NCBI GenBank assembly: GCA_003551845.1
Contig: PUNQ01000056.1
Location: forward strand, 1 to 54,069
Direction: 5' to 3'
Length of the DNA stretch: 54,069 nucleotides
Origin: Candidatus Nealsonbacteria bacterium
GTDB lineage: Bacteria; Patescibacteriota; Minisyncoccia; Minisyncoccales; PWPS01
Part shown: one piece after another, positions 36,839-54,069 of the stretch
Layout of the letters: each line of letters starts with the position of its first letter
Position numbering within the stretch: position 1 is the first letter of the stretch
Notes under the pieces: generated by a model
Told to the model about the DNA's origin: nothing
What the model saw: only the letters and a program-made list of their open reading frames with translations
Database searches by the model: none
Translations under genes and position numbers: made by a program

Positions 36839-36844
36839 AATGAC

Positions 36845-37240: not shown

Positions 37241-37271
37241 AGATTGTAGATCATGGGGGGTAACAATTAAA

Positions 37272-37327: not shown

Positions 37328-37347
37328 ATCAATTTTATTCCTAAAAA

Positions 37348-38175: not shown

Positions 38176-39359
38176 CTTGAAATTTTGTTTATCTTTTCAG
38201 CTATCTTTTTCACCTCTTTATTTTTAAGTCCGCAATAAAGAGGAAGCTGAATGATGCTGTCATAAACACTCTCCGCTTTTTTAAAATTTTTATCTTCAAC
38301 ACAAAGATCCATTATCTCATCTTCAATTGCTATGTCGACACCTTCGGAAAACATCTTTTTACTTATGATCTTACTGTCTTTGTCCGTTTTTAAAATTAAA
38401 AAATAGTTTGAATACTCCGAATTCATTCCCGATGGCCTTTCATCAAGAAGTTTTTTGCTAAGATTGACTTCATAGGTTTCAAGCTTATTTTTAATTTTTT
38501 GCTGTCTCTCTTCGAAAGATTTAAGTTCTGTGTTTCCGATAAAAGAAAGGAATGGGGATAATTTTTCTTTTTTCCAGTTTTTTTTATGAGAATTATGGAT
38601 TTTTTTTATTGTTTTCTTAATTTTTTTATTTTTCAGGAAAAACTTCAACAATCTGATAATGGGGGTTTTTAAAACTAATAACAAAAAATAATAATAAAAA
38701 ACCTTCTTTAAAGTCTCTCTTTTCTTCATTTCTTCATATCCGGAATAATCTTTTTCTATCTTTTTAAGATATTCTTTCTTCCCGACCAGCAAAGCGCCTC
38801 CTTCAAGTGTTTTTAGCGTCTTTATGTAGTTAAAGCTGAAAAGTGCAAAGTCGCCGAAAATTCCCAGGCTTTTGTTCTCGTACTCGGATCCGAAAGAGTG
38901 GGCGCAATCCTCTATTATTAAAATGTCTTCTTTCTTGTCTTTCACCTTTGCAATGAAATCATCGACATCCCCACATATTCCGAACATGTGCGATAAAATA
39001 ATAAAACGAGTATCTTCCGATATTTTTTCCAAAACATCTTCAAGGTCATTGGATAAATTGTTCTCATCTATATCGCAAAAGACGGGAACGAGCCCCTTTG
39101 ATTTGAAAATCGGAATTAGTACTTTTAAATAATAGTTGGGAACTATGATTTCCGAACCGGATTCATACGGAACATTATCAAAAATAAGATGAAAAGATTG
39201 TCTGCCGCCTCCCAGCAAAAAAATATTTTCACTCGAAAGATATTCCTGAAGACCGGCCCTGAATTTTTCCGGATAGACTTTCTTTTTTTTATCCTTAATC
39301 CAATCAACAATAATCGGGGCCAGGTTATTATACAAACTTATGTCTCTTCTCGGAATCAT
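38172..39359 (-). CDS. DegT/DnrJ/EryC1/StrS PLP-dependent sugar aminotransferase
   Basis: PVFCDID, HMFG, IEDCAHSFG, FSFNYIK...EGG, LPLY. Confidence 0.88.
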   Translation of the reverse strand: MIPRRDISLYNNLAPIIVDWIKDKKKKVYPEKFRAGLQEYLSSENIFLLGGGRQSFHLIFDNVPYESGSEIIVPNYYLKVLIPIFKSKGLVPVFCDIDENNLSNDLEDVLEKISEDTRFIILSHMFGICGDVDDFIAKVKDKKEDILIIEDCAHSFGSEYENKSLGIFGDFALFSFNYIKTLKTLEGGALLVGKKEYLKKIEKDYSGYEEMKKRETLKKVFYYYFLLLVLKTPIIRLLKFFLKNKKIKKTIKKIHNSHKKNWKKEKLSPFLSFIGNTELKSFEERQQKIKNKLETYEVNLSKKLLDERPSGMNSEYSNYFLILKTDKDSKIISKKMFSEGVDIAIEDEIMDLCVEDKNFKKAESVYDSIIQLPLYCGLKNKEVKKIAEKINKISR

Positions 39360-41047: not shown

Positions 41048-41094
41048 GTTTTATCGAAATTAGTAACGCTGAATAATTCTATTTTTTCAGATGA

Positions 41095-42807
41095 TTATGA
41101 GTTGATATTTTGCAGTTTTTCTATCACTCTTTCATTGTTCTTATGGACCCAAACAAGATAAGCCACTCCTCTTTCTTGATCCTCTATCCGAATACTCCCG
41201 TATCCGTTTTCCGAAAGATATTCTTCGACAAAATCAATATTGAATACTCTCTCTTGAAAAAAAGATTGACCTTTTTCGTAATCGGAAACGAGTGCTTTTT
41301 CCGAATCAGTGACAATCAAATCAAAATAGACATTATTTTTATTCGCCGAACTTTCAATTACATCCTCAAATTTTATCGCCCTCAACTCTCTCCTTTCCCA
41401 TTCGGGATTACGAGCACTGAAATAAGCTTTATCTTCCGTTCTCAACGCTTCAAAAACATTTTTCTGCGGAACTCCTTCGGATAAAAAATAGAGGGAAATA
41501 CCGGCAACCCCGCAGACATCGCATGCCCAAGGATCAACAAAATTATAAATACTATCAAACCCCCCTACACTTAGCGACGATCCCAGGCGATAAAATGTAG
41601 AATATCTCCCGCTGGAGAAGTTCTCTTCAAGATATTTCACTTCAAATATATTAAATAAATTAAAAATTATAATAAATGTTATTAAAAGAGAAGGAGTAAC
41701 CCGGGTAACGATTTTGTTTTTAGAAATGCTCTCAAAAAATTCGAATGTTCCATGAACCAAAATGACTACAAAAAGCGGTATTAAAATCATCAGATGAAAT
41801 GTTAGCATCATTTGCATCTCAAAAGTACTGGCGGCAGTATATAGCAAAATCAATAAAATAAAAGTTCCACTTTTTTTATCTTTCTTCAAAAAAAGGAAAA
41901 AAGCGGAAAAAAGGAAAAGATAAAAACTGAAAAAGCCGACCATGGCGGAGAATCCTCCGGGATTTCCGTGTAATTGAGGAAAGGTGGTGAAAATATTTTC
42001 CATATCCCCGAATCTGTGAATTAATTTAGTTAAATAATCGGAGTGAGCCCCTTCCTTGAAGAGATTCAAAATATTTTCAGTAATTCCATAGTATTGAGAA
42101 TAAAATACCATGTAAAATTCCCATATGATAAGAGGTAGCGCCCCCATAACTGTTGCACCCAAAAGAACTAAGGACTTTTTAATTGACAAAAATCTCTTCT
42201 TGAATCGGCGAGGATTGATTAATACGTAAGAAAGAATTAAAAAAAGGCCGAAAGGGGCGAATATTATTTTTCTATATGTTCCGATTCCGATAAGAAGCCC
42301 CAAAATAAAGATATATTTATCGTTATCTTCTTTTTTTAAAATTAAAGAATAAAAAAATAGACAACCGGTGGTGATAAAAGCTAAAAATGAATATTCCGAA
42401 TAATATCTGTGAAGAATAAAGTAGGGAAAAGATATCAGCAACAAAGTGGATAAAAGAGCCTTCTTTCGGTCATTAAAATAATTTTTTGAAAAAAAGAAAA
42501 AAAGAACTATCGAGCCCGATAAAAAAAATGCCTGCATCAACCTGAGCGTGGAAATATCAAATTCAAAAAACATATAAAAAGGCAGGGCCGGAAACTCCAT
42601 CGAATTATGATGATCATTCATCAAATATCTGATATTGAAACTTTCAATAAATTTAATTACGGAATTACTGTCATAAAAATCCTCCATTCCGTGAATTTCC
42701 GACGCCCGATAGAAATTTATTGAGAAAGCGGATATAAAAAGAAAAAGAGGCAAAAGGGTGCTTCTTAAACGGCTTTTAAATTGTTGAAAAATATTTTTAG
42801 AATTCAA
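41095..42807 (-). CDS. Multi-TM membrane glycosyltransferase (GT-C, PMT/ArnT-like)
   Basis: TTG start; many TM segments plus a soluble C-terminal domain; cluster context. Confidence 0.6.
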   Translation of the reverse strand: MNSKNIFQQFKSRLRSTLLPLFLFISAFSINFYRASEIHGMEDFYDSNSVIKFIESFNIRYLMNDHHNSMEFPALPFYMFFEFDISTLRLMQAFFLSGSIVLFFFFSKNYFNDRKKALLSTLLLISFPYFILHRYYSEYSFLAFITTGCLFFYSLILKKEDNDKYIFILGLLIGIGTYRKIIFAPFGLFLILSYVLINPRRFKKRFLSIKKSLVLLGATVMGALPLIIWEFYMVFYSQYYGITENILNLFKEGAHSDYLTKLIHRFGDMENIFTTFPQLHGNPGGFSAMVGFFSFYLFLFSAFFLFLKKDKKSGTFILLILLYTAASTFEMQMMLTFHLMILIPLFVVILVHGTFEFFESISKNKIVTRVTPSLLITFIIIFNLFNIFEVKYLEENFSSGRYSTFYRLGSSLSVGGFDSIYNFVDPWACDVCGVAGISLYFLSEGVPQKNVFEALRTEDKAYFSARNPEWERRELRAIKFEDVIESSANKNNVYFDLIVTDSEKALVSDYEKGQSFFQERVFNIDFVEEYLSENGYGSIRIEDQERGVAYLVWVHKNNERVIEKLQNINS

Positions 42808-42876
42808 CTTTCAGTTTCCGGTTTAAAATAATATATTTTCTTCTCCGATGAGCAACTACCGAGAAGGTTGCTAAAA

Positions 42877-44307
42877 TCATTTGAAAGGATTCATTAAGCT
42901 CAACAAGACCTTTAAACCGTTGAAATGCCTTTTAACTCCCTCCCAACTTCTTATTTTTGCCGCTCTTCGTAAAATGCGCTTCGGGCTTCTATAAAATCTA
43001 ATGTAAGATTTTTCATACATCTCTTTAACTTGATCCATGTCCCTGTAACCATCAGGAATAAAAACCAATTTATGTGTGGTATATTTATCATGATCATGAA
43101 TCAGCTCTCCATATTTCTCAGCCTCCCTGTGTAATTGAGTTCCGGGAAAAGGGGTTGTCGGAGCAAATTGTGCATAATCCGGATCCAGTTCTATCGCAAA
43201 ATCAACAGTTTTTTTAGTCATTTCGGGAGTTTCGCCCGGCATGAATAGCATGAAAGAGGCTCTAACCTCTATTCCCGCCTCTTTAGTCCATTTTACGGCT
43301 TTTTTATTTTGCTCTATTGTAGTTCCCTTGTTGACCTTGTCCAGAAGCTCCTGAACGCCGGATTCTATTCCGTAAAATATCTGCCAACAACCGGCCTCTT
43401 TCATCCTTTTTAAGATTTCAGGATCAACCGAATCAACCCTACAATAACAAGACCATCTGACATTTAAGTCTTCTTCAATCAATTTATCCGTTAATTCTTC
43501 CAACCACTCTCTGTCAGCCGATATCATTTCACTGCGGAATATTATCTCTTTGACTCCGTAATTTTCTATAACATGTTTCATTTCCGAAACGACCCTTCCC
43601 GGTGAGTGATAGCGCGCCTTCTTGCCCGAAACCTGGGTAAACGAACAAAAAGTACAATTATAGGGACAACCACGAGCAATAATCATGTGTGAGACGGGAA
43701 GCTCTTTGAAGTGATGTGGTGCCGGTTTATATTTTTCCATCGGCAATAAATGTCTTGCAGGAAAAGGAATTTTATCCAGCTCTTGAATGAGTTCCCGAGG
43801 TTTGTTTTTTATTATCTTTCCGGATTTATCCCTATATATCACTCCTTTGATTCCGGAAAGATCATCTCCGTTTAAAATTGCCCTCACCAACTCGGAAATA
43901 GTTTTTTCCCCCTCCCCGTAGACCACTATATCTATATTTTCATTTTCACGAAGCAGTTCTTCTTTTTTTATTGTCGGATAATGACCTCCCACCATTATCG
44001 TCTTTTCCGGAAATACTTCTTTTATCTTTTCAGCCGCCAAAACGACTCTTCTGAATGTGGGTGTCAAAACGGTAAATCCGATTATTTCCGGATTTATTTT
44101 TTCTATCTCCCGAATCATTTCATCAAGGTTCAAATCCAAAACCGGAGAATCTATTATATCAACAGAAATTTTCTCTTGTTCCAGAATGGCTGCCAAATAA
44201 GAAATTCCCAAAGGGGGCATATGATAGCCGACATCGGCAAACTGATATCGTTCTTCCGGAGTTATCGGGGGTATGGCGAACAACACCTTTTTTCTTTTCT
44301 TCTTCAT
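42877..44307 (-). CDS. Cobalamin-binding radical SAM protein (class B methyltransferase-like)
   Basis: PPLGISYLAA, GGHYPT, GEGE, RGCPYNCTFC, GIESG, PFPGT. Confidence 0.92.
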   Translation of the reverse strand: MKKKRKKVLFAIPPITPEERYQFADVGYHMPPLGISYLAAILEQEKISVDIIDSPVLDLNLDEMIREIEKINPEIIGFTVLTPTFRRVVLAAEKIKEVFPEKTIMVGGHYPTIKKEELLRENENIDIVVYGEGEKTISELVRAILNGDDLSGIKGVIYRDKSGKIIKNKPRELIQELDKIPFPARHLLPMEKYKPAPHHFKELPVSHMIIARGCPYNCTFCSFTQVSGKKARYHSPGRVVSEMKHVIENYGVKEIIFRSEMISADREWLEELTDKLIEEDLNVRWSCYCRVDSVDPEILKRMKEAGCWQIFYGIESGVQELLDKVNKGTTIEQNKKAVKWTKEAGIEVRASFMLFMPGETPEMTKKTVDFAIELDPDYAQFAPTTPFPGTQLHREAEKYGELIHDHDKYTTHKLVFIPDGYRDMDQVKEMYEKSYIRFYRSPKRILRRAAKIRSWEGVKRHFNGLKVLLSLMNPFK

Positions 44308-44381
44308 GAAAATAAAATTAACACTTTATTTTTGTCATTATACATTAAAAAATAATTATTCACCAAATATCATTCAAAAAA

Positions 44382-45320
44382 TTAAGAAAATAAAATATTT
44401 CCGATATTATCCGTTTTCATCATTTCTTCCACATCTTCCTCTCCGAAAAGATCCAGTCCGAACTTCGAGAAACCCGAGCATTTATTCCGAAGACTGCAAT
44501 TGGGACAAAAAGAGTTTTTAATTTTATCTTCCGGATCGAGGCTGCTCGTCTCAGCCCCTTCATTATAGATAAGAGAATCGTCATTACTGGTGTAGCCGAT
44601 AAATTTCTTTTCATAGCCTCCTATATGAAACCATTTTTCAGGAAGACGAACCGGTAAAACGCATCTGGTAAAATTAAGAAGATAAAACTGATCGAAGTTA
44701 CTGAATAATTTCATATTGTCATATAAAAATTTTTTCTTTTCGGTATAAGGAATGGCAAATCTTTCGAAATCCGAACCGGACGATCTTCCTTGCGGAACAA
44801 GCTCCAGTAATGAATACGCCTCTATCTTCATCTTTTGCAGCTCTTCGCATAATTCGGTCAAATTTTCAATGTTCTGCCGAATAAGAACCGAGGCGACGGC
44901 AATCTTTACACCGTATTTTTGAAGATTTTTGATGCCCTCCATACTCTCTCTGAAGGCTCCTTTTTTTTGAACGATCTCATCATGATCTCTCTCAATTCCA
45001 TGAAGAGCTACATCGACACTTTTGAGACCCAAGTTAACCAATTTTTCAGTAAATTCTTCATCGGAAAAATTTCTCCCGTTGGTGCTCATCCTAATAACTT
45101 TATATCCCTCACTCCGCCCTTTTTGAAAAAAATCAATAATTCCGGGATGTTCCGTGGGCTCTCCTCCCGTAAATTCCAATACTTTTAATTGGTCGCTGTC
45201 CTTATGAAGTTGTTCAAAAATTTCTTTTTTATCAGCGATAAAATCGAGGCCCGAATATTTTTTTACACTACACATGACACAATCATTATTGCACATGTTT
45301 CCTAAAAATATGATCTTCAT
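44382..45320 (-). CDS. Radical SAM protein (HxsC-like)
   Basis: N-terminal CNNDCVMC, TGGEPT, STNGR; C-terminal CPNCSLRNKCSG. Confidence 0.85.
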   Translation of the reverse strand: MKIIFLGNMCNNDCVMCSVKKYSGLDFIADKKEIFEQLHKDSDQLKVLEFTGGEPTEHPGIIDFFQKGRSEGYKVIRMSTNGRNFSDEEFTEKLVNLGLKSVDVALHGIERDHDEIVQKKGAFRESMEGIKNLQKYGVKIAVASVLIRQNIENLTELCEELQKMKIEAYSLLELVPQGRSSGSDFERFAIPYTEKKKFLYDNMKLFSNFDQFYLLNFTRCVLPVRLPEKWFHIGGYEKKFIGYTSNDDSLIYNEGAETSSLDPEDKIKNSFCPNCSLRNKCSGFSKFGLDLFGEEDVEEMMKTDNIGNILFS

Positions 45321-45446
45321 CAGTCAAAAAAATTTATTAACTTCATAAATAATAAACGACCCTTTTCATCGGTCGAGGTATTTTTTGCGAATGATTCATT
45401 AAAAAAGCACCCCTCCCGAAAAAGAGCGCTTTTATTTTAAAATTTT

Positions 45447-45701
45447 TTATACTTTAAAAACCTGATAACCTTCTCTGACCTTTTCCTTCACTTTCACTCC
45501 CACTTCCATTCCTTTTTTTGCACTCTCAACTTCTTCATAATCAATCTCCATGGAGGATACTTCTTGAGTAAAATCGGTATCTTCTCCACCGGCTATCCGT
45601 ATCTTTTCACCGATCTTCAGGCTATCGGAAAGTTTTATTATCGCAACCTCTATTTCTCCGAAATAGTGAATTATTTCCCCTATTTTTTTGCCCTCTGCCA
45701 T
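45447..45701 (-). CDS. Small beta-barrel protein (U32 C-terminal / translation-factor-like)
   Basis: IGEIIHYFGEIEVA, QEVSSMEID, VGVKVKEKVREG; start probably MAEGKK at 45701. Confidence 0.7.
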   Translation of the reverse strand: MAEGKKIGEIIHYFGEIEVAIIKLSDSLKIGEKIRIAGGEDTDFTQEVSSMEIDYEEVESAKKGMEVGVKVKEKVREGYQVFKV

Positions 45702-45722
45702 GTTAGTCATGTTTTTTATAAT

Positions 45723-46217
45723 TTATAGTATTCTAACATTTACTTTCTGAGCATCTTCTCCTTCCTCGGTGGTGTGAATCAAAACGTATATATTGCCCCT
45801 GTATTCTTGTTCCAGTATTTCCGCGGAAAAATTAAGGTCGTGACTGTCCGCATCCGAATCGGTTCCTTCCAGCCGATAATCCCTTTCTTCCAAAAAACTT
45901 ATAATTTCAGGTATATCATCATCTTCAATCACCCTGTTTACGACATAAGAAAGAGCAAGAACATCGCCCGTTTCCACAAGTTTCGGTTCTTCTCCGAAAA
46001 TTTCTTCCAACACCGATGCGAAGTCCTCGTGCATAACGATATTACGTTCGGTTATCGGCTGCACTTCTTCTACCGCGTAATAAGGATTGTCTTCATCAAC
46101 GATTTCTTCTTCATTTTCAACTTCTGGATCTCCGATGTTTTCCGCTTGAAAGTAAAAATATAATCCTCCCACTACGAGAACGAGGAGGACTATTATGATT
46201 AATGCCGTTTTTTTCAT
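45723..46217 (-). CDS. Hypothetical membrane-anchored acidic protein
   Basis: N-terminal TM anchor, D/E-rich. Confidence 0.65.
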   Translation of the reverse strand: MKKTALIIIVLLVLVVGGLYFYFQAENIGDPEVENEEEIVDEDNPYYAVEEVQPITERNIVMHEDFASVLEEIFGEEPKLVETGDVLALSYVVNRVIEDDDIPEIISFLEERDYRLEGTDSDADSHDLNFSAEILEQEYRGNIYVLIHTTEEGEDAQKVNVRIL

Positions 46218-46347
46218 GAAAAATAATTAATTTATTTTTAAATTCAACCTTTCAATTTCATTTTATCATATCCGGACAATCAAAACAACGGCGATGGTAT
46301 AATCGCTTTCTTTTACAACAACTTAATGGGTTAAAAGCTTTTAACCT

Positions 46348-46746
46348 TTAAAGATTAAACTTTTTTGCAAATTTTCCAATAACGGGAAGTTCTTTCTTTT
46401 TTCCCTTTAACACATTGACAATTCCCATTATGAAGAAAACAAAAGCGGCTATGTAAGCTACAAGTATAACCAGCCATCCCAAAATCGGAATAATCAGCAA
46501 AGGTATGCTTGCAATCCAAATGGCCACCCAAAAAATAAACAGGACGAGTCCCTGTTTGGCATGAAATTGAGCGAATTCGTCATCCTTTGCCGCAAGCAGG
46601 GGAACTAAAAAAAGAATCCATAAATAGCTGAGGAGAGCTAACGCATTTATTCCTCCCGACTCCTCTTCCGGCTGATTATCTTCCTGTTGTTCTTCCGGTT
46701 GATTTTGATGTTGGCCCTCTTCTTGATTGAGATTTTCTTCAGACAT
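46348..46746 (-). CDS. DUF4870 family membrane protein
   Basis: ALLSYL...FHAKQGLVLF...LPVIG. Confidence 0.85.
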   Translation of the reverse strand: MSEENLNQEEGQHQNQPEEQQEDNQPEEESGGINALALLSYLWILFLVPLLAAKDDEFAQFHAKQGLVLFIFWVAIWIASIPLLIIPILGWLVILVAYIAAFVFFIMGIVNVLKGKKKELPVIGKFAKKFNL

Positions 46747-46907
46747 AGATATGTTTTTATTTTTTAATTAATAAATTTCATAACGACCTTTGTCTTAGGT
46801 AAGTATATCACAATTTACGACAAGAAAAAAGAATATCATTCTTGCAATATTTTATGGTTTTTAGATTGAATTAAACCTTGCTTTTTGAATGAAAATGCAA
46901 TTCAAGA

Positions 46908-46934
46908 AAAAATCCCGGTTCTACCCGGGATTTT
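46908..46934. terminator. Terminator after dps
   Basis: AAAATCCCGG...CCGGGATTTT inverted repeat with A/T flanks. Confidence 0.7.
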
Positions 46935-46953
46935 AAGATTTTAAATTTTTCAA

Positions 46954-47388
46954 TCAAGAGCGGATCGCTTCTATAAACCAGATCTTTTGGCTGTAGTCGG
47001 CGACGTGGTCTTCCATTTCGGCAACCACCTCGAAATCATTTTCCTCATCGGCTTTATTTCTGATCTCCGTAGCTAATTTTTTCATTTCCTTCAAGTCCTT
47101 TTCCACGATTTCAAGAGACTCCATGCATCCGAACGATCTACTCTTTTCTTCCTTTACGGTTGCGTTTTTTACATAATCCTCCATTTTGACGAGAGGCATT
47201 TCTCCCTTCATTTTCAGAATTTCAGCAATCTCATCGAACTTCTCGAAAAAATCCTCGTAAAGCTCTTCTGTAAATTTATGAATCTGCATAAACTCCTTAC
47301 CTTCCACATTCCAGTGAATGTTGTGGAGCTTGGTGTTTAGCACTGCGAGATTGGAGAGATATGTCTGCATGCTTTTATAGTTTTTCAT
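46954..47388 (-). CDS. dps: Dps DNA-protecting ferritin-like protein
   Basis: KLHNIHWNVEG..F..IH..TEELY, DEIAE. Confidence 0.93.
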   Translation of the reverse strand: MKNYKSMQTYLSNLAVLNTKLHNIHWNVEGKEFMQIHKFTEELYEDFFEKFDEIAEILKMKGEMPLVKMEDYVKNATVKEEKSRSFGCMESLEIVEKDLKEMKKLATEIRNKADEENDFEVVAEMEDHVADYSQKIWFIEAIRS

Positions 47389-47416
47389 GGTTTTAAATAG
47401 GTAAAACTAATAATTA

Positions 47417-47439
47417 TTAATGATAATTACTATCATTAA
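47417..47439. promoter_or_regulatory. Fur/PerR-like box upstream of dps
   Basis: Palindrome TTAATGATA-ATTAC-TATCATTAA containing a 7-1-7 TGATAAT-T-ACTATCA, downstream of a TTGACA promoter (47475-47470). Confidence 0.65.
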
Positions 47440-47503
47440 CTATAAGTATGTTATCAAATCTTAGATTTTTGTCAAGAAAAACATCCTTTTTTTATTTTTG
47501 GAA

Positions 47504-47722
47504 TCACTCTCCTTTCTCAGCCATCTTAGCTATCCAAACGGTAGCGGTTACGGCAATTATGGTAACGACCACTGCATATACCAGCATGGAAACCACACCT
47601 TCCGCGGTTCCGAAAACCTCCCTGAAAACAGCTTGAATAGCACCATTCCAGGCCAAAGCGGCAACCAGCCCGAAGGCGGAAATTATTAGTGAACTCATCT
47701 TGTCAATTACTTGATTTTTCAT
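47504..47722 (-). CDS. DUF5654-like small membrane protein
   Basis: SAFGLVAALAWNGAI...YAVVVTIIAV. Confidence 0.8.
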   Translation of the reverse strand: MKNQVIDKMSSLIISAFGLVAALAWNGAIQAVFREVFGTAEGVVSMLVYAVVVTIIAVTATVWIAKMAEKGE

Positions 47723-47888
47723 AATTATTTTTATTTTAACTTATAATGGATAATGATTAATTACCCGATTCGGACCGATGCTTCCGGCAGGTTCAAGTAA
47801 CCGAATGACAAAAAACTGCAATAATCTTGAAGAATGTTTATTATCCGGAATTTTCATAATTTCACTTCAAGGATAAGAATATCCTCAC

Positions 47889-49004
47889 TCAATAACATAT
47901 TTCCGAATGCATTTTTTGACCATTTAAAACCTTCTTTATACATTCGGTTTCAAACCTCGTAAATCTATAAATTCCTCCATGCTGAACTTCGGGTAATTTC
48001 CAAACGACTTCACCACTTCTATTTATTTCAAATGCACGATTTTTCATTGATTCTGAAATTAAAATATTTCCATTCGGCAACTCTTGAGCACTTCCCATAA
48101 ATTCCGAATGGAAATTTTCTGTTCCCGCCTTATTATAGCTCCAAACTATTTCATTTTCCGGATTTATCTCCAATATTCGGCTGTAATCTCGTTTCTCCAG
48201 CCCGTTATCGAAAATCAAAATATTACCGCCTTCTGTCATTGTCGGATGGTGGGGTCTGTCCAGATCGACATCTGAAAACCAGACAATCTCTTCTTGATTA
48301 AAATCAAAAAGTATTATCATGTCAATATTTCTAAGAGATAACAGAATTCTGTCTTTTATAAAAATATCATCATAATCTTTATCCAAAACCGTTATTGAAT
48401 TCAGATGAAATAACTTAATCGCCTCATCGGAAGATAGGTAGATATCTTTCAGAGGTTCTTCTCGAAAAAGACTTTTTTCGGCTACTTCCTTCAGATTAAT
48501 TTCATTACTGCTTTCAAAAACTTCATAAAGAGAGACCTCTTTGTCGAAAACTTCTCCCGTATCAATTGCAACCCTCTTTAAGACTTCATCCTCAATGTGC
48601 TCTTCCAATAAGTCAGAGTAGCGACTTTTTCTTGATGAGGCAATTAAATTTTCTCTGAAAACTCCCGTGTCATGATGGCCCAGATCACGATTTTTCCAAA
48701 CCACATTGGATTTTTTATCAAAACGAACAATTACTTCACTGTTGTCCGTATAAATCAAATCACCATTTTCCCAGATTAAAGGATAATTAAATCTCATAAC
48801 GGAATCAAAGTTTTTGTCCACATCCCACTGATGCACAACCGATCCGGAATTTTCCATTAAAAAAACCTTTCTTTCCCTTCTGTCGTGAAAAAAATTCATT
48901 CCGGGATATACGTCTTTTGGATTTCTTTCAATAATCTCAAAACTTTCATAATCCGAAACCGATAATTTTCTGTTCCAAAAATCCAGTTGAAAAAAAATAA
49001 CCAA
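47889..49004 (-). CDS. Arylsulfotransferase (ASST)-like beta-propeller protein
   Basis: HHD, FHLNSI, LLSLRN, HHPT...ILIFDNG, SAQELPNGNILISES; the true start is probably further upstream. Confidence 0.8.
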   Translation of the reverse strand: MVIFFQLDFWNRKLSVSDYESFEIIERNPKDVYPGMNFFHDRRERKVFLMENSGSVVHQWDVDKNFDSVMRFNYPLIWENGDLIYTDNSEVIVRFDKKSNVVWKNRDLGHHDTGVFRENLIASSRKSRYSDLLEEHIEDEVLKRVAIDTGEVFDKEVSLYEVFESSNEINLKEVAEKSLFREEPLKDIYLSSDEAIKLFHLNSITVLDKDYDDIFIKDRILLSLRNIDMIILFDFNQEEIVWFSDVDLDRPHHPTMTEGGNILIFDNGLEKRDYSRILEINPENEIVWSYNKAGTENFHSEFMGSAQELPNGNILISESMKNRAFEINRSGEVVWKLPEVQHGGIYRFTRFETECIKKVLNGQKMHSEICY

Positions 49005-49243
49005 TATAGCTGCTGAGATCGAAAAAAAAATAGCGGCTCCCGAAATATATCTTGCTTTTTTCTTGAAGTTGATAGAACTGTAATTTGTTTATTTTATCTT
49101 GCTTAACTATACCATAAACAAAAAACAATGAAATGGATTTCAAAGCTGCAGCTTTATTTTGTGCCCGTTTGGAGTCTTCGACAAAACCGAAAAGATTATA
49201 TCACATCAGGCAGAATATTTATCCATCTTTTCGACCATCTCTA

Positions 49244-50794
49244 TCAAAGAATTAATTTTTCTTTAATTTCCTCGGTTCCTTCTTGTATTTCTTTTATAAT
49301 TTCTTCAGTTTCTTCTGCAAACATAGGGTTTTTGTATCGAGGAATAGGTCTTTGACCGGCTGATAACTTTGACAGTACTCCGTTTTGAGCCTTTTTCTCT
49401 TCTTCGGGCTCTATTACCCACAATAAAACGGGGTAATCCTCATTGATATATTTTTTTGCCCAAACCGAATCGAAGTCCCATTTGTCATACAGATCTTTCA
49501 AGGGTTCTTCCTCATATTCATAAAAATTTTCAATCTCATCCACAAGCAAACATTCCGTTTCCGTGCCATTTTCCTCTATTTTGCCTACACAATCTTTTTC
49601 ACCGTCTTGTTTGTAAGCGAACGAATTTTTTATAAATTCATTATTCCTACCACCGAAAACTCCGGCATAGTCAATATTTCCCACCACATTTCCGACAGAA
49701 TAAGAGTTCTTTATAACTCCTTCATCAAGATAGCCGACAAAGCCACCCACTTTGTTCCCATCATTATCGACTTCTCCCACATCTCCCGTAGCATATGAGT
49801 TTTTTACGGTTTTGAGATTGTATCCGACAAAGCCACCCGTCGTTCCCTCTTCCGCTTCTTCATCATAATTCCAATTTACATCACCTCCGGAATGAGAATT
49901 CTTTATAATTCCTTCATTAAAACCGACAAAACCACCTACTCCCCAATATCCTCCTTCCACATTTCCCCGGGAATAGGACTCTTCCACGGAAGCAGTCTCA
50001 TTTTCTCCGCTCACATTGTGGCCGATAAGACCTCCGACTTGATCATCCTCGCCTTGAACCTTTCCCTTGGCATAAGATCTTCTTATATCCGATTTTTCAT
50101 TTCTTCCGACAAGGCCTCCGAGGATTTTATTTCCCTCAACATTGCCCGTGGCATATGAATCTTTTATGGTCGCATCTTGATTCCATCCCACCAAGCCTCC
50201 GACAAGATCGTCTCCTTTCACTTCCACTTTTGCACCGGAATCGTTAATTGATCCCTTCCAATTGGTGGCTACAATTCCACCTACGTAATCATCTCCCTCC
50301 ACTATTCCTCCTTCCATATGCACATTTCGGATATTGCCGCTATTGTATCCGACGAGACCGCCGGTCTGCTCACCTCCCGAGATATCAACATTTTTCAATC
50401 TGAGATCAAAAATTTTTCCGCCACTGTCCACTTTGGAAAAGAGGCCGACTCTTTCTCTTGTACTCTCATCAATAGTCAGATTTTTTATCTCGTATCCGTT
50501 ACCATCGAAAATTCCTCCGAATGGACTCTCTTCATTTCCTATCGGTTGAAATTCTAAATTTTTGCAATCGATATCTTTTTTCAAAATATAATTACCATTC
50601 AACAAATAGTTGTCATCAATACCGATAAGTTGCATCTCCTCACAACTTTCAATCATTATTTTTTCTTGTCCCATAACTATTCCATTGGGTTTGGGAGTAA
50701 AAACTGACAAGATTAAAATTATTGTAATGAGAAAAAATTTATGGAAAATATTTTCTTTCCGCACTCCTCTTTTTCTTTTTTTTAACTTAATCAT
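49244..50794 (-). CDS. Membrane-anchored GLUG-repeat surface protein
   Basis: N-terminal TM segment; FGGIFDGNGYEIKN and many VGGLVG.N repeats. Confidence 0.88.
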   Translation of the reverse strand: MIKLKKRKRGVRKENIFHKFFLITIILILSVFTPKPNGIVMGQEKIMIESCEEMQLIGIDDNYLLNGNYILKKDIDCKNLEFQPIGNEESPFGGIFDGNGYEIKNLTIDESTRERVGLFSKVDSGGKIFDLRLKNVDISGGEQTGGLVGYNSGNIRNVHMEGGIVEGDDYVGGIVATNWKGSINDSGAKVEVKGDDLVGGLVGWNQDATIKDSYATGNVEGNKILGGLVGRNEKSDIRRSYAKGKVQGEDDQVGGLIGHNVSGENETASVEESYSRGNVEGGYWGVGGFVGFNEGIIKNSHSGGDVNWNYDEEAEEGTTGGFVGYNLKTVKNSYATGDVGEVDNDGNKVGGFVGYLDEGVIKNSYSVGNVVGNIDYAGVFGGRNNEFIKNSFAYKQDGEKDCVGKIEENGTETECLLVDEIENFYEYEEEPLKDLYDKWDFDSVWAKKYINEDYPVLLWVIEPEEEKKAQNGVLSKLSAGQRPIPRYKNPMFAEETEEIIKEIQEGTEEIKEKLIL

Positions 50795-50810
50795 ATTTAC
50801 AGCTTAAACT

Positions 50811-50832
50811 AAAAAACCGACTTAAAAGTCGG
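50811..50832 (-). terminator. Riboswitch expression-platform terminator
   Basis: Minus strand CCGACT-TTTA-AGTCGG followed by T6, between the aptamer and the start codon. Confidence 0.8.
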
Positions 50833-50843
50833 AGAGGGTTTTC

Positions 50844-50921
50844 TTGGTGATCGGTTACGCCACCGGCTCCTCGCAATTCAGGCGTCCAAATAAAACAATT
50901 GCGAATCAAGGCCCCCACCAA
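50844..50921 (-). ncRNA. Cyclic di-GMP-II class riboswitch aptamer
   Basis: Minus strand UUGGUGG-G-GGC-CUUGA-UUCGCAAUU-(..UUUGGACGCCUG)-AAUUGCGAG-GA-GCC-GGU-GGCGU-AACCGA-UCACCAA: P1, kink-turn, pseudoknot ACGCC/GGCGU and the conserved AACCGA. Confidence 0.82.
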
Positions 50922-50974
50922 ACTTTTTAAATTTATACCATTCTTTTAACTTCAAATCAAGAATGAATAAAAAA

Positions 50975-51811
50975 TCAATAAAAAATTATCGTTCGGCAAC
51001 AGCTTAGCCTTTTGCTCTTATCCGTAAGCACGCTTTGTTTCTCTAATTTTATCCAATCTGCATTCTTTACTTTTCTTAACTTCTCTTCATCCGCAATTGG
51101 AGTCTTGACAACATTGCTTATCTTTATTCGTTTTTTTCTTTTTTCATAATCAAAAATAATGTAGTCCAAAAAATCAAAAATGATAAATCCTCTTCTTAGT
51201 GCTCTTTCGGTTTTCTTATTTTCTTCCGGTAGATATTTTTTAATTACATTTTGAGTCTTTTTTGCCATTTCAAAAGATTCACCACATCCAACCGAACAAG
51301 GTATGTGTGACAGATAATAATATTCATTACCGAAGTATTCTTTTATTCGTGAACCTATTTTTTCCAACCCCTCGGTTCCTATGCTTTGTATATTGAGTAG
51401 AGTGTTTATCCTATAATCGAGCTCCATGTTATCACCCTCGTTAAAAATAGTCGACTCTTCTCTGGAAAAAGACTTATTACCACGCTTCCCCAAATGATGC
51501 TTCACGCAACACTTCGGATAACCGAGCATGAGTCCGAGCTTATAAAAATCACCCTTTTTTCTTATTTTTTTAACCTCTTTGCAAATTTCTTTCTTTTTTC
51601 CGATTGCTATTGATATATCAGCCGGATCTTCATCGGATGACCACATTTCTACTTCGAGTCCGAAGTTATTCAACGTCTTTTCAATAAGGTTTCTGTCATG
51701 GTGCCAATACAAACCATCAAAAAGAACATCCTTTTCTCCTTCATAAACCATGCACAGCTCTTGATAGGACCCCGGCCATGTATCTATTAATTTTGATATT
51801 TTTTCCGACAT
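50975..51811 (-). CDS. Hypothetical Cys-motif protein (DUF483-like)
   Basis: GLMLGYPKCCV and LSHIPCSVGC motifs. Confidence 0.6.
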   Translation of the reverse strand: MSEKISKLIDTWPGSYQELCMVYEGEKDVLFDGLYWHHDRNLIEKTLNNFGLEVEMWSSDEDPADISIAIGKKKEICKEVKKIRKKGDFYKLGLMLGYPKCCVKHHLGKRGNKSFSREESTIFNEGDNMELDYRINTLLNIQSIGTEGLEKIGSRIKEYFGNEYYYLSHIPCSVGCGESFEMAKKTQNVIKKYLPEENKKTERALRRGFIIFDFLDYIIFDYEKRKKRIKISNVVKTPIADEEKLRKVKNADWIKLEKQSVLTDKSKRLSCCRTIIFY

Positions 51812-51987
51812 TTTTAAATATGTAACGATAATTATATAAAACCTAAATAATTATTTCGAAGGCTTTAAGGTCCGTATGCCGATTTTATGAAAGGAAAATT
51901 TTGATTACAAAGAAGAATAAGGCTATTCAATTCGTGCTCGTAATTCATTTATTTTTTCTTCTATGTCCTCAGCAATGCGTTGAGCGA

Positions 51988-52302
51988 TTATTCGGTTACC
52001 TTTCTTATTTTTTTATTATTGGAAAAATCGCCGACCATTTTCACTATTTTTTTACAAGTATCGTCATTTCGTTTGGGGATGTAAAAAATCGTCAGATCAT
52101 CATCCGGATTCAATTCTTTGTAGTTTATCTCTTTTTCTGAAACAACCTTTTTCTCATCACCAATTCTTATTTTTTTCTCTTTAAAAACGGTTTTACTGTC
52201 AAATTTTATCGTAATAACTCTTCCCGTTTTTTTATCGATTCCCGTAATCAATCCTGCTTCAATTTTATTCACCATTATATCTGCTGTCTTTTCCTCCATC
52301 AT
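51988..52302 (-). CDS. Hypothetical protein (possibly a fragment)
   Basis: 104-aa ORF co-oriented with its neighbours; no family recognised. Confidence 0.45.
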   Translation of the reverse strand: MMEEKTADIMVNKIEAGLITGIDKKTGRVITIKFDSKTVFKEKKIRIGDEKKVVSEKEINYKELNPDDDLTIFYIPKRNDDTCKKIVKMVGDFSNNKKIRKVTE

Positions 52303-52425
52303 ATCTTTATATCTTTATAAAATATTATCTTAATTGTTTTCGGGTCTTTGAATCAGTATAGATAATTTTTAAAAAAACAAAAAGCGGAAACATTCCGCCT
52401 TTTGTTTTATTTGTATTTTTATTTT

Positions 52426-52836
52426 TTATTCCACTATCAAGCTCCCGTACATTCCCTCTTCTCTATGATTTTCCACACTGCAATAATACTCGAATTCACC
52501 GACTTGATCAGCAATAAAATCAATTGTTTGGATTTCTCCTTCCGAAAGAACTTCCGTAGCTACGCCGAATTCATCTATAACAAAATCATGCGTTCCTCCC
52601 GTCACGATAAATTCAATCACCACCTCATCACCTTGATTGACCACTATATTCGGATTTTCTTCTCCGTTAACGTAATATTCCCTACCTTCCGCTTCTATTT
52701 GCAAAGCAACATCCCTCGATTCAATTCGTATATCTTCTCTATTTAATTCATCATTAATTTCACCCATCTGAAAAGCAAGAATGATTCCAACAAGAGCCAG
52801 AGCGATAACGAGCGGAGCAATTATTTTTTTACTCAT
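52426..52836 (-). CDS. Cupredoxin (plastocyanin/azurin-like) domain protein
   Basis: N-terminal anchor; THDF...EYYCSVENHREEGM type-1 copper ligands (H, C, H, M). Confidence 0.9.
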   Translation of the reverse strand: MSKKIIAPLVIALALVGIILAFQMGEINDELNREDIRIESRDVALQIEAEGREYYVNGEENPNIVVNQGDEVVIEFIVTGGTHDFVIDEFGVATEVLSEGEIQTIDFIADQVGEFEYYCSVENHREEGMYGSLIVE

Positions 52837-52951
52837 ATATAAGCTTTATTTAATAATTCGACCTTTGTTAATTTTATCACGACAAAACCATTTGGACAAT
52901 TTTTTAAAATGGGCTTTTTTGTTGTCCGTTTCTTTGAGTTGCGGAATCTAA

Positions 52952-53617
52952 CTACGGACACAACCGGTCCGCCGACTGCCAAAATTCTTGATCGGGTCTC
53001 CTGCAAAACGTTCTTTCACCCATCCATACCAAAATCCAGCTCCCTTCCTCCGAAACGATAAAATCATACCGGGTTTCGTTTCCACCGATCGAATCATCCG
53101 GAAAATTCATTGCCTGAACGTAGGCCGACAACCCTTCTTCGGCCGGCCCCGCATCTTCATAGTCAGCAATAGGATATTCGGCTACGACACTTTCATCCAA
53201 TGAGTGGAAGGATGCGTAGTACTGAAACATGTCTTCGGAATATGCATCCAACTCTTCTTGAGACGGCACCTTTTCTTCCAGTATTCGCTCGATGAAATCA
53301 ATTGGAGTTTCTCCCGATTCAAGATTGAATTCCGTCTCTACCAGCCTTGTTTCTTCGTCCGTTATTTCAATTTCATACGGAAGTTCGGCATATTCTTCAC
53401 GTGACTTTTGGTCTATCGAATCGCGATCAAGTGTAATTCGGCGATCTCTAACTTCCGTTTCCCGAGGAAGTCTACCGAGCTCCATTTCGACTTCCGTCAA
53501 CTCTATATCATTATCGTTTACAATCAGCTCCTCTTCAAAATTACCGATCCAAAGAATAAATCCCGCAGCCAATACGGCTAAAGCAATAATGATTTTTAAT
53601 CCCGTTTTTGTCTTCAT
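52952..53617 (-). CDS. Hypothetical membrane-anchored acidic protein
   Basis: N-terminal TM anchor; DDSI...RYDF...CRR...CP C-terminus. Confidence 0.65.
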   Translation of the reverse strand: MKTKTGLKIIIALAVLAAGFILWIGNFEEELIVNDNDIELTEVEMELGRLPRETEVRDRRITLDRDSIDQKSREEYAELPYEIEITDEETRLVETEFNLESGETPIDFIERILEEKVPSQEELDAYSEDMFQYYASFHSLDESVVAEYPIADYEDAGPAEEGLSAYVQAMNFPDDSIGGNETRYDFIVSEEGSWILVWMGERTFCRRPDQEFWQSADRLCP

Positions 53618-53641
53618 ATTATGACTGTGATTAGTTGATAA

Positions 53642-53869
53642 TTATTGAAAAAAGTTGATCCAAATTGCAAGTATTCCGTGAGCCAAACTGACAATTACGG
53701 CTATTACGGCCACCCTTGAGTGCCATTTAAAAGGAATTACCCGAATTTTGAATTTCATATTCAGGGTGGCGATAAGAGCGGCAAAAAGTATTAACAATAA
53801 TGATAAAAGTCCCAGCCAAAGAACTAACGGTCTTCCGAATATCATGTAATAAGCGATGTTTGATAGCAT
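53642..53869 (-). CDS. Small two-TM membrane protein
   Basis: 75 aa with two His in TM context (KWH, AHG). Confidence 0.65.
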   Translation of the reverse strand: MLSNIAYYMIFGRPLVLWLGLLSLLLILFAALIATLNMKFKIRVIPFKWHSRVAVIAVIVSLAHGILAIWINFFQ

Positions 53870-53995
53870 ATGTTTTTACTAAAATCCTTATTTAACGATA
53901 CCACAAATTAAAGTTCAATTAAAATAACAAAGGCTCGGATTAGATCTAATCACTCTTACATCCTGCATTATAAAGCTTTGAAAGTGTTAATCCAA

Positions 53996-54069
53996 TCAGG
54001 GCTGTAAAACTTCTTCCGTTTCACCCTCTATCGATATAACCACATCATCTATATCCTCGAATTGGAGTA
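53996..54069 (-). CDS. Partial CDS (C-terminus), GerMN-domain-like
   Basis: Manual translation ...LQFEDIDDVVISIEGETEEVLQP*, which resembles GerMN C-termini. Confidence 0.55.
   Translation of the reverse strand, partial: LQFEDIDDVVISIEGETEEVLQP

What the first reader, a model, noticed from the sequence alone, without database searches (positions are those of the whole stretch)
50811..50921. c-di-GMP-II-class riboswitch, with G at the J1/2 ligand position, controlling a GLUG surface protein in a CPR bacterium
Seen: the leader of the 516-aa GLUG protein folds into P1 (UUGGUGG/UCACCAA), a textbook kink-turn (GGC-CUU-GA / GA-GCC) and a long P3. The P3 loop UUUGG-ACGCC pairs with downstream GGCGU-AA-CCGA, and an intrinsic terminator follows. 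Known: this is the architecture of clostridial c-di-GMP-II aptamers (GCACU/AGUGC pseudoknot, AACCGA), here with compensatory changes. The single J1/2 base is A in canonical aptamers but G here, which I recall as the signature of the 'GAG' variant class. Inference: AACCGAU can alternatively pair with the terminator 3' arm (GUCGGUU), suggesting an OFF switch when ligand is bound. An episymbiont may be gating an adhesin with its own or a host-derived cyclic dinucleotide. No GGDEF/EAL genes occur in this window.
Basis: partly seen in the sequence, partly recalled or inferred. Interest (0 to 1): 0.85.

Follow-up and report, generated by a model that had tools for sequence, protein, structure and literature searches.

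The report
c-di-GMP-II riboswitch before a GLUG protein

Summary
Window 50925-50840 (minus strand) matches Rfam c-di-GMP-II at 58.7 bits (cut-off 53.5). It is followed by an intrinsic terminator (50832-50817 plus a U-run) and the 516-aa GLUG protein. Across 62 distinct related aptamers, 90.8% of pair cells form standard pairs, and the pseudoknot is 99% paired with compensatory changes.

It is not a GAG/GCG variant. Those names describe model positions 66-68, where the Galpha-reading adenine becomes G. Here that adenine, the intercalating adenine and the Gbeta-reading G are all kept. The J1/2 G co-occurs with A at position 73, so the canonical A.G floor pair is swapped to G.A. The same swap is found in 5 of 62 aptamers of the CPR-centred set and 5 of 27 Clostridia-class aptamers, so it is a common natural variant.

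The aptamer's 5' strand (50925-50912) can pair with the C-run plus the terminator's 5' arm (50838-50826), forming an antiterminator. Nine relatives show the same design clearly.

GGDEF, EAL, HD-GYP, PilZ, DAC and SMODS are absent from the assembly. However, the site where a congener carries its GGDEF gene falls on a contig break, so absence of a cyclase is unproven. GGDEF occurs in 60 of 150 genomes of the phylum.

Verdict: a new member of a known class, of moderate interest.

The parts
50932..50940 (-). Putative extended -10 promoter element, TGgTATAAA. It places the transcription start at about 50926-50924, the 5' end of the aptamer.
   Evidence: Read from the sequence. The two-hexamer consensus scan did not report it because there is no -35. 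The congener G021 has TATAAT at the same distance. This is inference.
50840..50925 (-). c-di-GMP-II class aptamer (86 nt)
   Evidence: RF01786 at 58.7 bits, cut-off 53.5. Own model R1 gives 79.3 bits.
50915..50921 (-). P1 5' strand UUGGUGG, pairing with 50844-50850 (UCACCAA)
   Evidence: All 8 P1 pairs change on both sides across the 62 sequences.
50914..50914 (-). J1/2 nucleotide G (model position 12, A13 of PDB 3Q3Z), the floor of the ligand pocket. Its partner is A at 50851 (model position 73).
   Evidence: Structural role taken from PMC13715770.
50905..50913 (-). P2 5' strand GGC plus the kink-turn bulge and GA (CUUGAU). Partners are GGA at 50868-50870 and GCC at 50865-50867.
   Evidence: P2 is 96.7% paired.
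50871..50904 (-). P3 stem (50897-50904 with 50871-50878) and its loop
   Evidence: P3 is 95.4% paired and all 6 counted pairs change on both sides.
50881..50887 (-). Pseudoknot 5' strand GGACGCC in the P3 loop. It pairs with GGCGU (50857-50861) and CC (50853-50854).
   Evidence: 99% paired, 4 of 5 variable pairs change on both sides. The pseudoknot was not part of the model that made the alignment.
50851..50864 (-). J2/1 ligand-site strand GGUGGCGUAACCGA: ceiling G 50864 (canonical A); AA 50856-50855 (Galpha reader and intercalator); G 50852 (Gbeta reader); A 50851 (floor partner)
   Evidence: Roles taken from PMC13715770.
50826..50838 (-). C-run CCCUCU plus the terminator 5' arm and one more base (CCGACUU). 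This is the proposed 3' strand of the antiterminator, pairing with 50912-50925.
50811..50832 (-). Intrinsic terminator: CCGACU-UUUA-AGUCGG (50832-50817) followed by UUUUUU (50816-50811)
   Evidence: Conserved in G021 with a different loop. Unchanged in the strain variant of run X2.
49244..50794 (-). Regulated gene: 516-aa protein with an N-terminal signal/anchor-like segment and GLUG repeats
   Evidence: An orthologous GLUG protein follows the aptamer in G021.

Best explanation
This is a canonical-class c-di-GMP-II riboswitch in the 5' leader of a gene for a secreted or N-terminally anchored GLUG-repeat protein, in a bacterium of the Patescibacteria (CPR). The aptamer keeps the three nucleotides that read or intercalate the ligand, so the ligand is most likely c-di-GMP. 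G at J1/2 is one half of a swapped floor pair: the canonical A.G becomes G.A. The most likely mechanism is transcriptional OFF. Without ligand, the 5' strand of the aptamer (AAGUU-U-GG-U-GGGGG, i.e. P1-5', J1/2 and P2-5') pairs with the C-run and the 5' arm of the terminator (CCCUC-U-CC-GACUU). This blocks the terminator and allows read-through into the GLUG gene. With ligand bound, P1, P2 and the pseudoknot hold that strand, the hairpin plus U-run forms, and transcription stops at about 50811-50816. Shown: class membership by covariance model, covariation of all helices including the pseudoknot, conservation of the ligand-site nucleotides, the terminator, and the gene association in a congener. 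Inferred: the ligand, the direction of switching, and the promoter.
For: Class: RF01786 at 58.7 bits, above the 53.5 cut-off and above the GAG (48.4) and GCG (49.0) models at the same place.
Fold: on 62 distinct aptamers, 90.8% of pair cells form standard pairs and 0 of 500 shuffles reach the observed values. Slid controls give 30-41%. The pseudoknot is 99% paired.
Ligand site: A68 in 62/62, A69 in 61/62 and G72 in 60/62, and all three are present in the window. Their roles as Galpha reader, intercalator and Gbeta reader are taken from PMC13715770 (whole text read).
J1/2: G12 goes with A73 in 5 of 6 G12 aptamers of the CPR-centred set and in 5 of 6 of a Clostridia-class sample. A12 goes with G73 in 43 of 52 and 15 of 20.
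OFF logic: the MFE of the nascent leader, before the terminator's 3' arm exists, is the antiterminator fold at -28.0 kcal/mol. The P1 fold gives -22.8 in G000 and -15.8 in G021. The 5' strand/terminator-arm duplex is -14.3 kcal/mol and is matched by 1.8% of 246,692 genomic windows. In 9 of 19 evaluated relatives with a separate terminator, the same two segments are complementary (for example GUGAAGGC:GCCUUCAC), with at most 4 of 300 shuffles as good.
Conservation: the aptamer, terminator and GLUG gene are arranged the same way in congener G021. A strain variant in run X2 differs at 4 bases (50800-50809), with two indels nearby (TATT put in behind 50793, 1 base left out at 50811), between the ATG and the U-run, but at no position in 50812-50840 (that contig has depth 4.55, so this is weak evidence).
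Against: At equilibrium the full-length leader prefers the terminator-containing fold (-31.8 against -28.0 kcal/mol), so antitermination would have to be kinetic. The G000 antiterminator is only modestly better than background (2.3% of shuffles, 1.8% of genomic windows). In G021 it is not distinguishable from shuffles (0.32), because any G-rich strand pairs with that C-rich target, and the register differs by one base between the two congeners. The pocket-lining positions 12 and 60 are G and G rather than the usual A and A (A in 52/62 and 55/62), so altered affinity or specificity cannot be excluded. The assembly contains no enzyme that makes or degrades c-di-GMP. The four class-II switches characterised in C. 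difficile are all ON switches (PMC6366702, passages read). No binding or transcription data exist.
Confidence: 0.6

Rival explanations
1. Same aptamer, but with altered ligand preference. The G.A floor, the G ceiling and the G-C first pair of P2 would shift selectivity towards another cyclic dinucleotide, such as 3',3'-cGAMP, or towards a dinucleotide acquired from the host cell.
For: Positions 12 and 60 line the pocket and are A in 52/62 and 55/62 aptamers. The window is the only row with G at both. PMC13715770 shows that small changes near P1 and the first P2 pair of a class-II aptamer shift cGAMP-isomer affinities several-fold. No GGDEF, EAL, HD-GYP, PilZ, DAC or SMODS is found in the assembly.
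Against: All three base-reading or intercalating nucleotides are canonical. The G12.A73 swap recurs in 5 of 27 Clostridia-class aptamers and in several CPR lineages whose genomes do encode GGDEF, including G021, G191 and G218. No synthase for another dinucleotide was found either. The missing GGDEF coincides with a contig break.
Confidence: 0.15
2. ON switch, or no ligand-dependent switching at this terminator. The hairpin would form in both states, and the ligand would act otherwise, for example through the ancestral AACCG...CGGUU terminator logic seen in relatives, or through RNA stability or translation.
For: The terminator hairpin is part of the MFE both in the unconstrained fold and when P1 is forced (-31.8 and -30.5 kcal/mol). 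In 9 of 63 surveyed leaders (plus 2 looser cases) the terminator's 5' arm is the aptamer's own AACCG segment, which is ON logic; this includes congener G017 and the G12.A73 aptamer of G092. The window's terminator 3' arm, GUCGGUU, is still complementary to AACCGAU. The characterised class-II switches are ON.
Against: In G000 and G021 a separate local 5' arm exists, so sequestering AACCGAU in the bound aptamer cannot prevent the hairpin. The nascent-chain MFE is the antiterminator. The same 5'-strand antiterminator design is clear in 9 relatives.
Confidence: 0.2
3. One reading: AACCGAU (50856-50850) pairs with the terminator's 3' arm GUCGGUU as the antiterminator.
For: The 7-bp complementarity exists in G000 (read from the sequence).
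Against: Forcing this helix gives -20.6 kcal/mol against -31.8 in G000, and -16.6 against -29.2 in G021. In G021 only 5 bp remain. The helix ends directly at the U-run, and in relatives that same geometry is the terminator. The local 5' arm is much closer to the 3' arm.
Confidence: 0.04

Closest known systems
c-di-GMP-II riboswitch (Rfam RF01786; Clostridium acetobutylicum aptamer, PDB 3Q3Z; C. difficile Cdi-2 switches)
   Same: P1-P2-P3 architecture with a kink-turn. Pseudoknot between the P3 loop and the 3' joining strand. The AACCG ligand-site motif with A, A and G conserved. Location in a 5' leader with an intrinsic terminator. Association with secreted or surface proteins.
   Different: The floor pair is G.A instead of A.G and the ceiling is G instead of A. 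The pseudoknot is ACGCC/GGCGU instead of GCAC(U)/(A)GUGC. The predicted logic is OFF via a 5'-strand antiterminator, whereas the four C. difficile class-II switches are ON (PMC6366702). The host is a roughly 0.86-Mb Patescibacteria genome.
c-di-GMP-II-GAG and -GCG variant classes (Rfam RF03169, RF03170)
   Same: Same overall fold and clan. The window scores above both of their cut-offs (48.4 against 40; 49.0 against 47.9).
   Different: Their consensus replaces the Galpha-reading adenine with G (positions 66-68 read GAG or GCG). The window has G-U-A there and scores 10 bits higher with the canonical model. J1/2 is A in the GAG consensus. The GCG reading is inferred from the name and was not seen in a call.
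Tandem c-di-GMP-II riboswitches upstream of surface-anchor genes in Paraclostridium (PMC9481103)
   Same: Many Patescibacteria relatives found here carry two or three class-II aptamers in series, each with its own terminator.
   Different: The window has a single aptamer, and the host phylum differs.

Membership tests
c-di-GMP-II riboswitch (RF01786) | Covariance-model score at or above the curated gathering score | tested here: met
   58.7 bits against 53.5, full-length match 1-84. It is the best-scoring model of clan CL00127 at this place.
c-di-GMP-II riboswitch (RF01786) | P1, P2 with kink-turn, and P3 helices supported by covariation | tested here: met
   P1 has 8/8 pairs changing on both sides, P2 is 96.7% paired and P3 is 95.4% paired. 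The alignment was fitted to these helices, so the counts lean towards them. The UGA and GGA kink-turn bases are invariant or nearly so.
c-di-GMP-II riboswitch (RF01786) | Pseudoknot between the P3 loop and the 3' joining strand | tested here: met
   ACGCC/GGCGU plus GG/CC in the window. Across 62 sequences it is 99% paired, with 4 of 5 pairs changing on both sides. The pseudoknot was not in the aligning model. Many rows were collected with a pattern that fixed this helix, so the variation comes from the other rows.
c-di-GMP-II riboswitch (RF01786) | Ligand-reading nucleotides A69, A70 and G73 of 3Q3Z (model positions 68, 69, 72) | tested here: met
   A, A and G in the window (50856, 50855, 50852). 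Conserved in 62/62, 61/62 and 60/62. Roles from PMC13715770.
c-di-GMP-II riboswitch (RF01786) | Typical rather than defining: adenines lining the pocket as floor (A13 of 3Q3Z) and ceiling (A61) | tested here: not met
   G at 50914 and G at 50864. These bases stack on the ligand and do not read it. G at the floor with A at position 73 occurs in 5/62 and 5/27 natural aptamers. G at the ceiling occurs in 4/62 and 1/27.
c-di-GMP-II riboswitch (RF01786) | Binds c-di-GMP and changes expression of the downstream gene | not testable with these tools
   Needs in-line probing or ITC, and transcription assays.
c-di-GMP-II-GAG / -GCG variants (RF03169 / RF03170) | G in place of the Galpha-reading adenine (positions 66-68 read GAG or GCG instead of GCA) | tested here: not met
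   The GAG consensus reads ...GGCGAGACCGa.... The window reads GGCGUAACCGA, with A kept at position 68. The meaning of the names is my inference from that consensus. The defining paper (PNAS 2017, PMC5358364) is not held.
Rho-independent terminator | GC-rich hairpin immediately followed by a U-run | tested here: met
   6-bp stem with 4 G-C pairs, a 4-nt loop, and UUUUUU.
GLUG-motif protein (Pfam PF07581) | GLUG repeats above the Pfam cut-off | tested here: met
   119.1 bits against 20.5, 5 stretches. There is a weak Peptidase_M26_N match below its cut-off (19.9 against 27.7). No solved-structure relative was found by sequence (0 hits).

The most novel reading that the evidence does not exclude
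A genome-reduced episymbiont that truly lacks any diguanylate cyclase, phosphodiesterase or PilZ receptor keeps a single c-di-GMP-II riboswitch as its only cyclic-dinucleotide sensor. It uses the riboswitch to read a dinucleotide made by its host or neighbours, possibly with selectivity shifted by the G.A floor and G ceiling, and switches off a secreted GLUG beta-helix protein in response.
Probability: 0.08. Interest if true: 0.8.

Novelty: new member of a known kind. Interest (0 to 1): 0.35.

Why it matters
The finding shows that class-II c-di-GMP riboswitches are part of the small regulatory repertoire of Patescibacteria. They occur in 7 of 150 sampled genomes of the phylum, often in tandem. 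There they sit in front of secreted, cell-wall-active or adhesin-like proteins, which are the kind of proteins an episymbiont would use on its host. My three searches of the held literature found no paper describing this.

It also gives a set of natural class-II leaders whose architecture predicts OFF switching, the opposite of the characterised C. difficile examples. In addition, it documents an A.G to G.A swap at the floor of the ligand pocket as a recurrent natural variant. That is useful for anyone predicting ligand specificity from sequence.

It does not, as it stands, show a new ligand or a new riboswitch class.

Tried and rejected
GAG/GCG variant: rejected.

Archaeal (DPANN) origin: considered because of a weak DUF483 hit, a GC-rich tRNA and a strong archaeal-SSU-model hit. 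Rejected for the window contig because it carries the bacterial S12-S7-EF-G-EF-Tu...L2-S3...SecY gene order.

Second aptamer copy in the genome: none found. The next-best matches are 16.5 and 13.8 bits.

The G137 hit in the order sample (29.7 bits) lies inside 23S rRNA and was dropped.

The DNA pattern scans were unspecific. Only 32 of the 238 fetched loci contain an aptamer by model R1. The rest are chance matches, mostly in GC-rich genomes. One weak match (L034, 21 bits) was ignored.

No RNA holder is listed among public runs, so there is no expression or 3'-end evidence. Run X3 and the low-share run X4 showed only the G021-type relative's aptamer.

No solved-structure relative of the GLUG protein was found by sequence. 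No structure prediction was run.

I did not test whether the riboswitch-bearing genomes are enriched for GGDEF beyond raw counts: 5 of 7 against 55 of 143 in the phylum sample. The numbers are small and the genomes are related to each other.

Papers not held: PMC5358364 / 10.1073/pnas.1619581114, PMC3093532 and PMC4538695. What I say about 3Q3Z contacts therefore comes from PMC13715770 only. Supplements were not consulted.

Full report
1. THE OBSERVATION

A scan of the whole window with all Rfam families gives two hits above gathering score. One is a tRNA. The other is RF01786, c-di-GMP-II, at 50925..50840 on the minus strand: 58.7 bits against a cut-off of 53.5, E 1.5e-10, full model length. 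The loop sequence GGACGCC is complementary to GGCGU..CC in the 3' joining strand.

A consensus scan of 50600-51100 finds one terminator-like site, CCGACTTTTAAGTCGG followed by TTTTTT at 50832-50817 on the minus strand (1 found; shuffles gave mean 0.3). The next ORF, 50794..49244, encodes 516 aa with five GLUG motifs (E 2.1e-35) and a sub-threshold match to the N-terminal region of M26 IgA1 peptidases. Its N-terminus is a basic stretch followed by a hydrophobic segment, and there is no C-terminal anchor motif.

2. WHOSE GENOME

The window is contig C23 of an 864,282-bp assembly in 71 contigs, estimated 100% complete. The contig carries the bacterial S12-S7-EF-G-EF-Tu, L2, S3 and SecY genes, so it is bacterial. 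This holds despite a strong hit of the archaeal SSU model elsewhere in the assembly.

Nearly all sampled genomes of its family, order and phylum are 0.3-2.1 Mb. Among 119 named genome records fetched by a motif pattern, 8 contain true aptamers. Five of those 8 are titled Candidatus Saccharibacteria (two), Candidatus Moraniibacteriota, Candidatus Doudnabacteria or Patescibacteria group. The other three are two contigs of one Bdellovibrionales MAG and one Clostridiales MAG. The aptamer pair of G111, a genome of the window's own order, is identical to that of a record titled Candidatus Saccharibacteria. 'CPR bacterium' is therefore well supported. An episymbiotic lifestyle is general knowledge about that group and was not tested here.

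3. IS THE FOLD REAL AND CONSERVED?

RF01786 was searched in relatives. It is found in 2 of 27 other genomes of the family, both in the same genus: G021 at 51.9 bits and G017 at 44.6 bits. In the order sample it is found in 3 of 150 others, one of which (G137) lies inside 23S rRNA and is false. In the phylum sample it is found in 7 of 150 others.

I built a covariance model from 17 of these aptamers and screened 238 loci fetched with a motif pattern from genome and metagenome collections. Thirty-two of these loci hold aptamers. The combined structural alignment has 79 matches, 62 of them distinct.

On this alignment, 90.8% of pair cells form standard pairs. Shuffles give 71.4% and none of 500 reaches the observed value. 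Slid controls give 30-41%. The pseudoknot, which was not in the model, is 99% paired with four of five pairs changing on both sides (A-U, U-A, G-C and so on). Caveats apply. Helices 1-3 are favoured by the model-fitted alignment. The pattern used to fetch many rows fixed the pseudoknot sequence, so its variation comes from tandem partners and from the genome searches.

4. GAG VARIANT OR NOT?

The same place scores 48.4 bits with RF03169 (GAG, cut-off 40) and 49.0 with RF03170 (GCG, cut-off 47.9). Both are below the canonical model's 58.7. Three relatives are best matched by the GAG model, which let me see its consensus...cgGGAgGC...AgUGGCGAGACCGaCC.... Against the canonical ...GAggC...AGUgGUGCAACCGgCc..., the difference lies at positions 66-68 (GAG instead of GCA), and J1/2 is A in both.

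I infer that the class names refer to those three positions, so that the adenine at position 68 is replaced by G. The paper that defined the classes is not held, so this is inference, and I did not see the GCG consensus. According to PMC13715770 (whole text read), in PDB 3Q3Z the upper guanine of c-di-GMP is read by A69, A70 intercalates, and the lower guanine is read by G73 and the ribose of A70. [quoted passage not shown] A non-canonical A.G pair at the top of P1 forms the floor, and the first P2 pair stacks on the ligand backbone. These correspond to model positions 68, 69, 72, 60, 12/73 and 13/59.

The window has A, A, G at 68, 69, 72 (canonical), G at 60, G/A at 12/73, and G-C at 13/59.

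5. WHAT THE J1/2 G MEANS

In the 62 distinct aptamers, position 12 is A in 52 and G in 6. Position 73 is G in 45 and A in 17. The combinations are A/G 43, A/A 9, G/A 5 and G/G 1. The G/A aptamers come from at least three lineages: the window's genus, genus g143, and G092.

In a sample of 150 genomes of the class that contains a Clostridiales MAG, 16 genomes carry 27 distinct aptamers. Position 12 is G in 6 of these, and 5 of those 6 again have A at position 73. The floor pair is thus found in two orientations, A.G and G.A. The G.A form is a recurrent natural variant in the classic host group as well, and it occurs in genomes that encode GGDEF (G021, G191, G218). G at the ceiling is rarer (4/62 and 1/27). 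The window is the only row with both changes, and its congener G021 has the usual A at the ceiling. Because these bases stack on the ligand rather than read it, I take c-di-GMP as the most likely ligand (about 0.75), but altered affinity or selectivity is not excluded.

6. EXPRESSION PLATFORM

I surveyed the 130 nt downstream of 63 distinct aptamer-plus-flank rows. Two designs stand out.

- Type A: the helix that ends at the U-run uses the aptamer's own AACCG(G/A)... segment as its 5' arm. There are 9 clear cases with 6-12 bp, among them G092 and G237a, and 2 looser ones including congener G017. Ligand binding would sequester that arm, which is ON logic.
- Type B: a separate hairpin plus U-run starts after the aptamer. 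There are 19 cases with stems of 6 bp or more, including G000 and G021.

For type B I asked whether the aptamer's 5' strand (end of P1-5', J1/2, P2-5') is complementary to the terminator's 5' arm. Of 21 listed leaders, 19 could be evaluated. Nine show 8-12 bp of complementarity reached by at most 4 of 300 shuffles, for example GUGAAGGC with GCCUUCAC. G000 gives -13.3 kcal/mol, reached by 7 of 300 shuffles. Nine others, G021 among them, are not distinguishable from shuffles. This is the architecture of an OFF switch: the antiterminator needs the strand that the ligand-bound aptamer holds.

In G000 the pairing is AAGUU-U-GG-U-GGGGG (50925-50912) with CCCUC-U-CC-GACUU (50838-50826). It covers the whole 5' arm of the terminator, and the J1/2 G forms a G-C pair in it. 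Before the 3' arm is transcribed, this fold is the MFE at -28.0 kcal/mol. The P1 fold gives -22.8 in G000. In G021 the values are -28.0 and -15.8. Once the 3' arm exists, the terminator-containing fold is lower (-31.8 in G000, -29.2 in G021), so the switch would be kinetic, as in many riboswitches. Genome-wide, 1.8% of 15-nt windows pair with the 5' strand as well as the real partner does. The support is therefore moderate, not strong.

Its geometry is that of the type-A terminator.

An extended -10 element (TGgTATAAA, 50940-50932) lies 6 nt upstream of the aptamer, and G021 has TATAAT at a similar distance (5 nt). This is inference.

7. CYCLIC-DINUCLEOTIDE ENZYMES

The assembly has no match to GGDEF, EAL, HD-GYP (HD_5), PilZ, DAC or SMODS. 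tblastn with seven GGDEF proteins of relatives finds nothing better than E 0.049. GGDEF is nevertheless common in the phylum (60 of 150 sampled genomes) and is present in 7 of the 11 other riboswitch-bearing genomes, including both congeners.

In G017 the GGDEF gene lies in a 1.65-kb stretch. Its left flank matches G000 contig C36 up to base 1, and its right flank matches contig C55 from base 4. Neither that gene nor its 186-aa neighbour is found anywhere in G000. The syntenic site is therefore an assembly break. Absence of a cyclase in this organism is not shown, and the idea of a host-derived ligand has no positive support.

8. WHAT THE SWITCH CONTROLS

G021 has the orthologous GLUG protein behind its aptamer. 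Elsewhere in the phylum the aptamers precede a CAP-domain protein (behind a tandem pair), an SLT+VanY cell-wall hydrolase, a glucosaminidase, a GGDEF protein (G285), an RNase III-like protein, and several signal-peptide proteins without Pfam matches. This resembles the surface and adhesion regulon of class-II switches in Clostridia (PMC6366702 passages; PMC9481103 passages). 'Adhesin' for the GLUG protein is an inference from family annotation. No solved relative was found by sequence.

9. POPULATION DATA

No RNA run is listed. DNA contigs of a second run (X2) include a strain variant differing at 4 bases (50800-50809), with two indels nearby (TATT put in behind 50793, 1 base left out at 50811), between the ATG and the U-run, and at 5 positions in the first codons. 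It shows no difference within 50812-50840, which covers the terminator and the C-run (that contig has depth 4.55, so individual differences may be errors).

10. VERDICT

This is a real riboswitch of a known class in a lineage where the papers I could search do not describe it. It carries a common floor-pair variant, and its platform most likely turns the GLUG gene off when c-di-GMP is bound. Confidence by part:

- class membership: about 0.93
- c-di-GMP as ligand: about 0.75
- OFF direction: about 0.6

Novelty: a new member of a known kind. Interest: moderate.

Noticed in passing
L008:1342-1585, L049, L047, L052, L096, L169, L199, L228, L235, L259, L265 and others: Class-II aptamers in Patescibacteria-type records are very often in tandem (doublets 133-271 nt apart start to start, some triplets). 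There is usually a terminator between them, of the recurrent form GACCUUCAC...GGUC plus a U-run, whose 5' arm is complementary to the preceding aptamer's 5' strand. Tandem class-II switches are known from Paraclostridium (PMC9481103). I found no paper on them in CPR in my three searches.
   Followed up: partly
L014:805-1584 (G285): One relative has the aptamer directly upstream of a GGDEF gene (Pfam E 1.9e-25), which would be a c-di-GMP feedback loop on its own synthesis.
   Followed up: partly
G000 contigs C36:1 and C55:1-4, compared with L027:1131-2784: The G000 assembly breaks exactly where congener G017 carries a GGDEF gene and a 186-aa neighbour.
   Followed up: yes
window 30018-31538 (-): A second GLUG protein (506 aa) with a type-IV-pilin-like N-terminal methylation motif (N_methyl, E 5.9e-7). 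There is no aptamer upstream. The 16.5-bit RF01786 match at 29138-29228 is on the opposite strand and is probably chance.
   Followed up: no
window 36000-54069: GC content drops from about 0.40-0.45 to 0.34-0.37 from about 36 kb onwards. This part holds three radical-SAM proteins (one B12-binding, one SPASM), a DegT-type aminotransferase, a carbamoyltransferase and a PMT_2 glycosyltransferase. It may be a glycan- or metabolite-modification island that also contains the riboswitch locus.
   Followed up: no
G000:C43:19-651 and G000:C64:10512-11650: Two SSU rRNA fragments. The one on C43 was listed only by the archaeal model (701.9 bits for model positions 829-1467), while C64 is matched by both models. 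C43 could be a contaminating archaeal fragment in the bin.
   Followed up: no
window 19043-19117 (+): tRNA-Pro(GGG) with 76% G+C in a roughly 40% G+C contig.
   Followed up: no
window 49244-51100: Public runs that hold this stretch are labelled salt-lake (X1, which may be the source, and X2) and soda-lake (X3) metagenomes. The same runs also hold the G021-type relative's aptamer and a third, more abundant class-II aptamer with a GGCCGGUUUUUUU terminator.
   Followed up: partly
L066 and L141: A MAG titled Bdellovibrionales carries four class-II aptamers very similar to the Patescibacteria ones, including a tandem pair. This could reflect mis-binning or shared ancestry of the elements.
   Followed up: no
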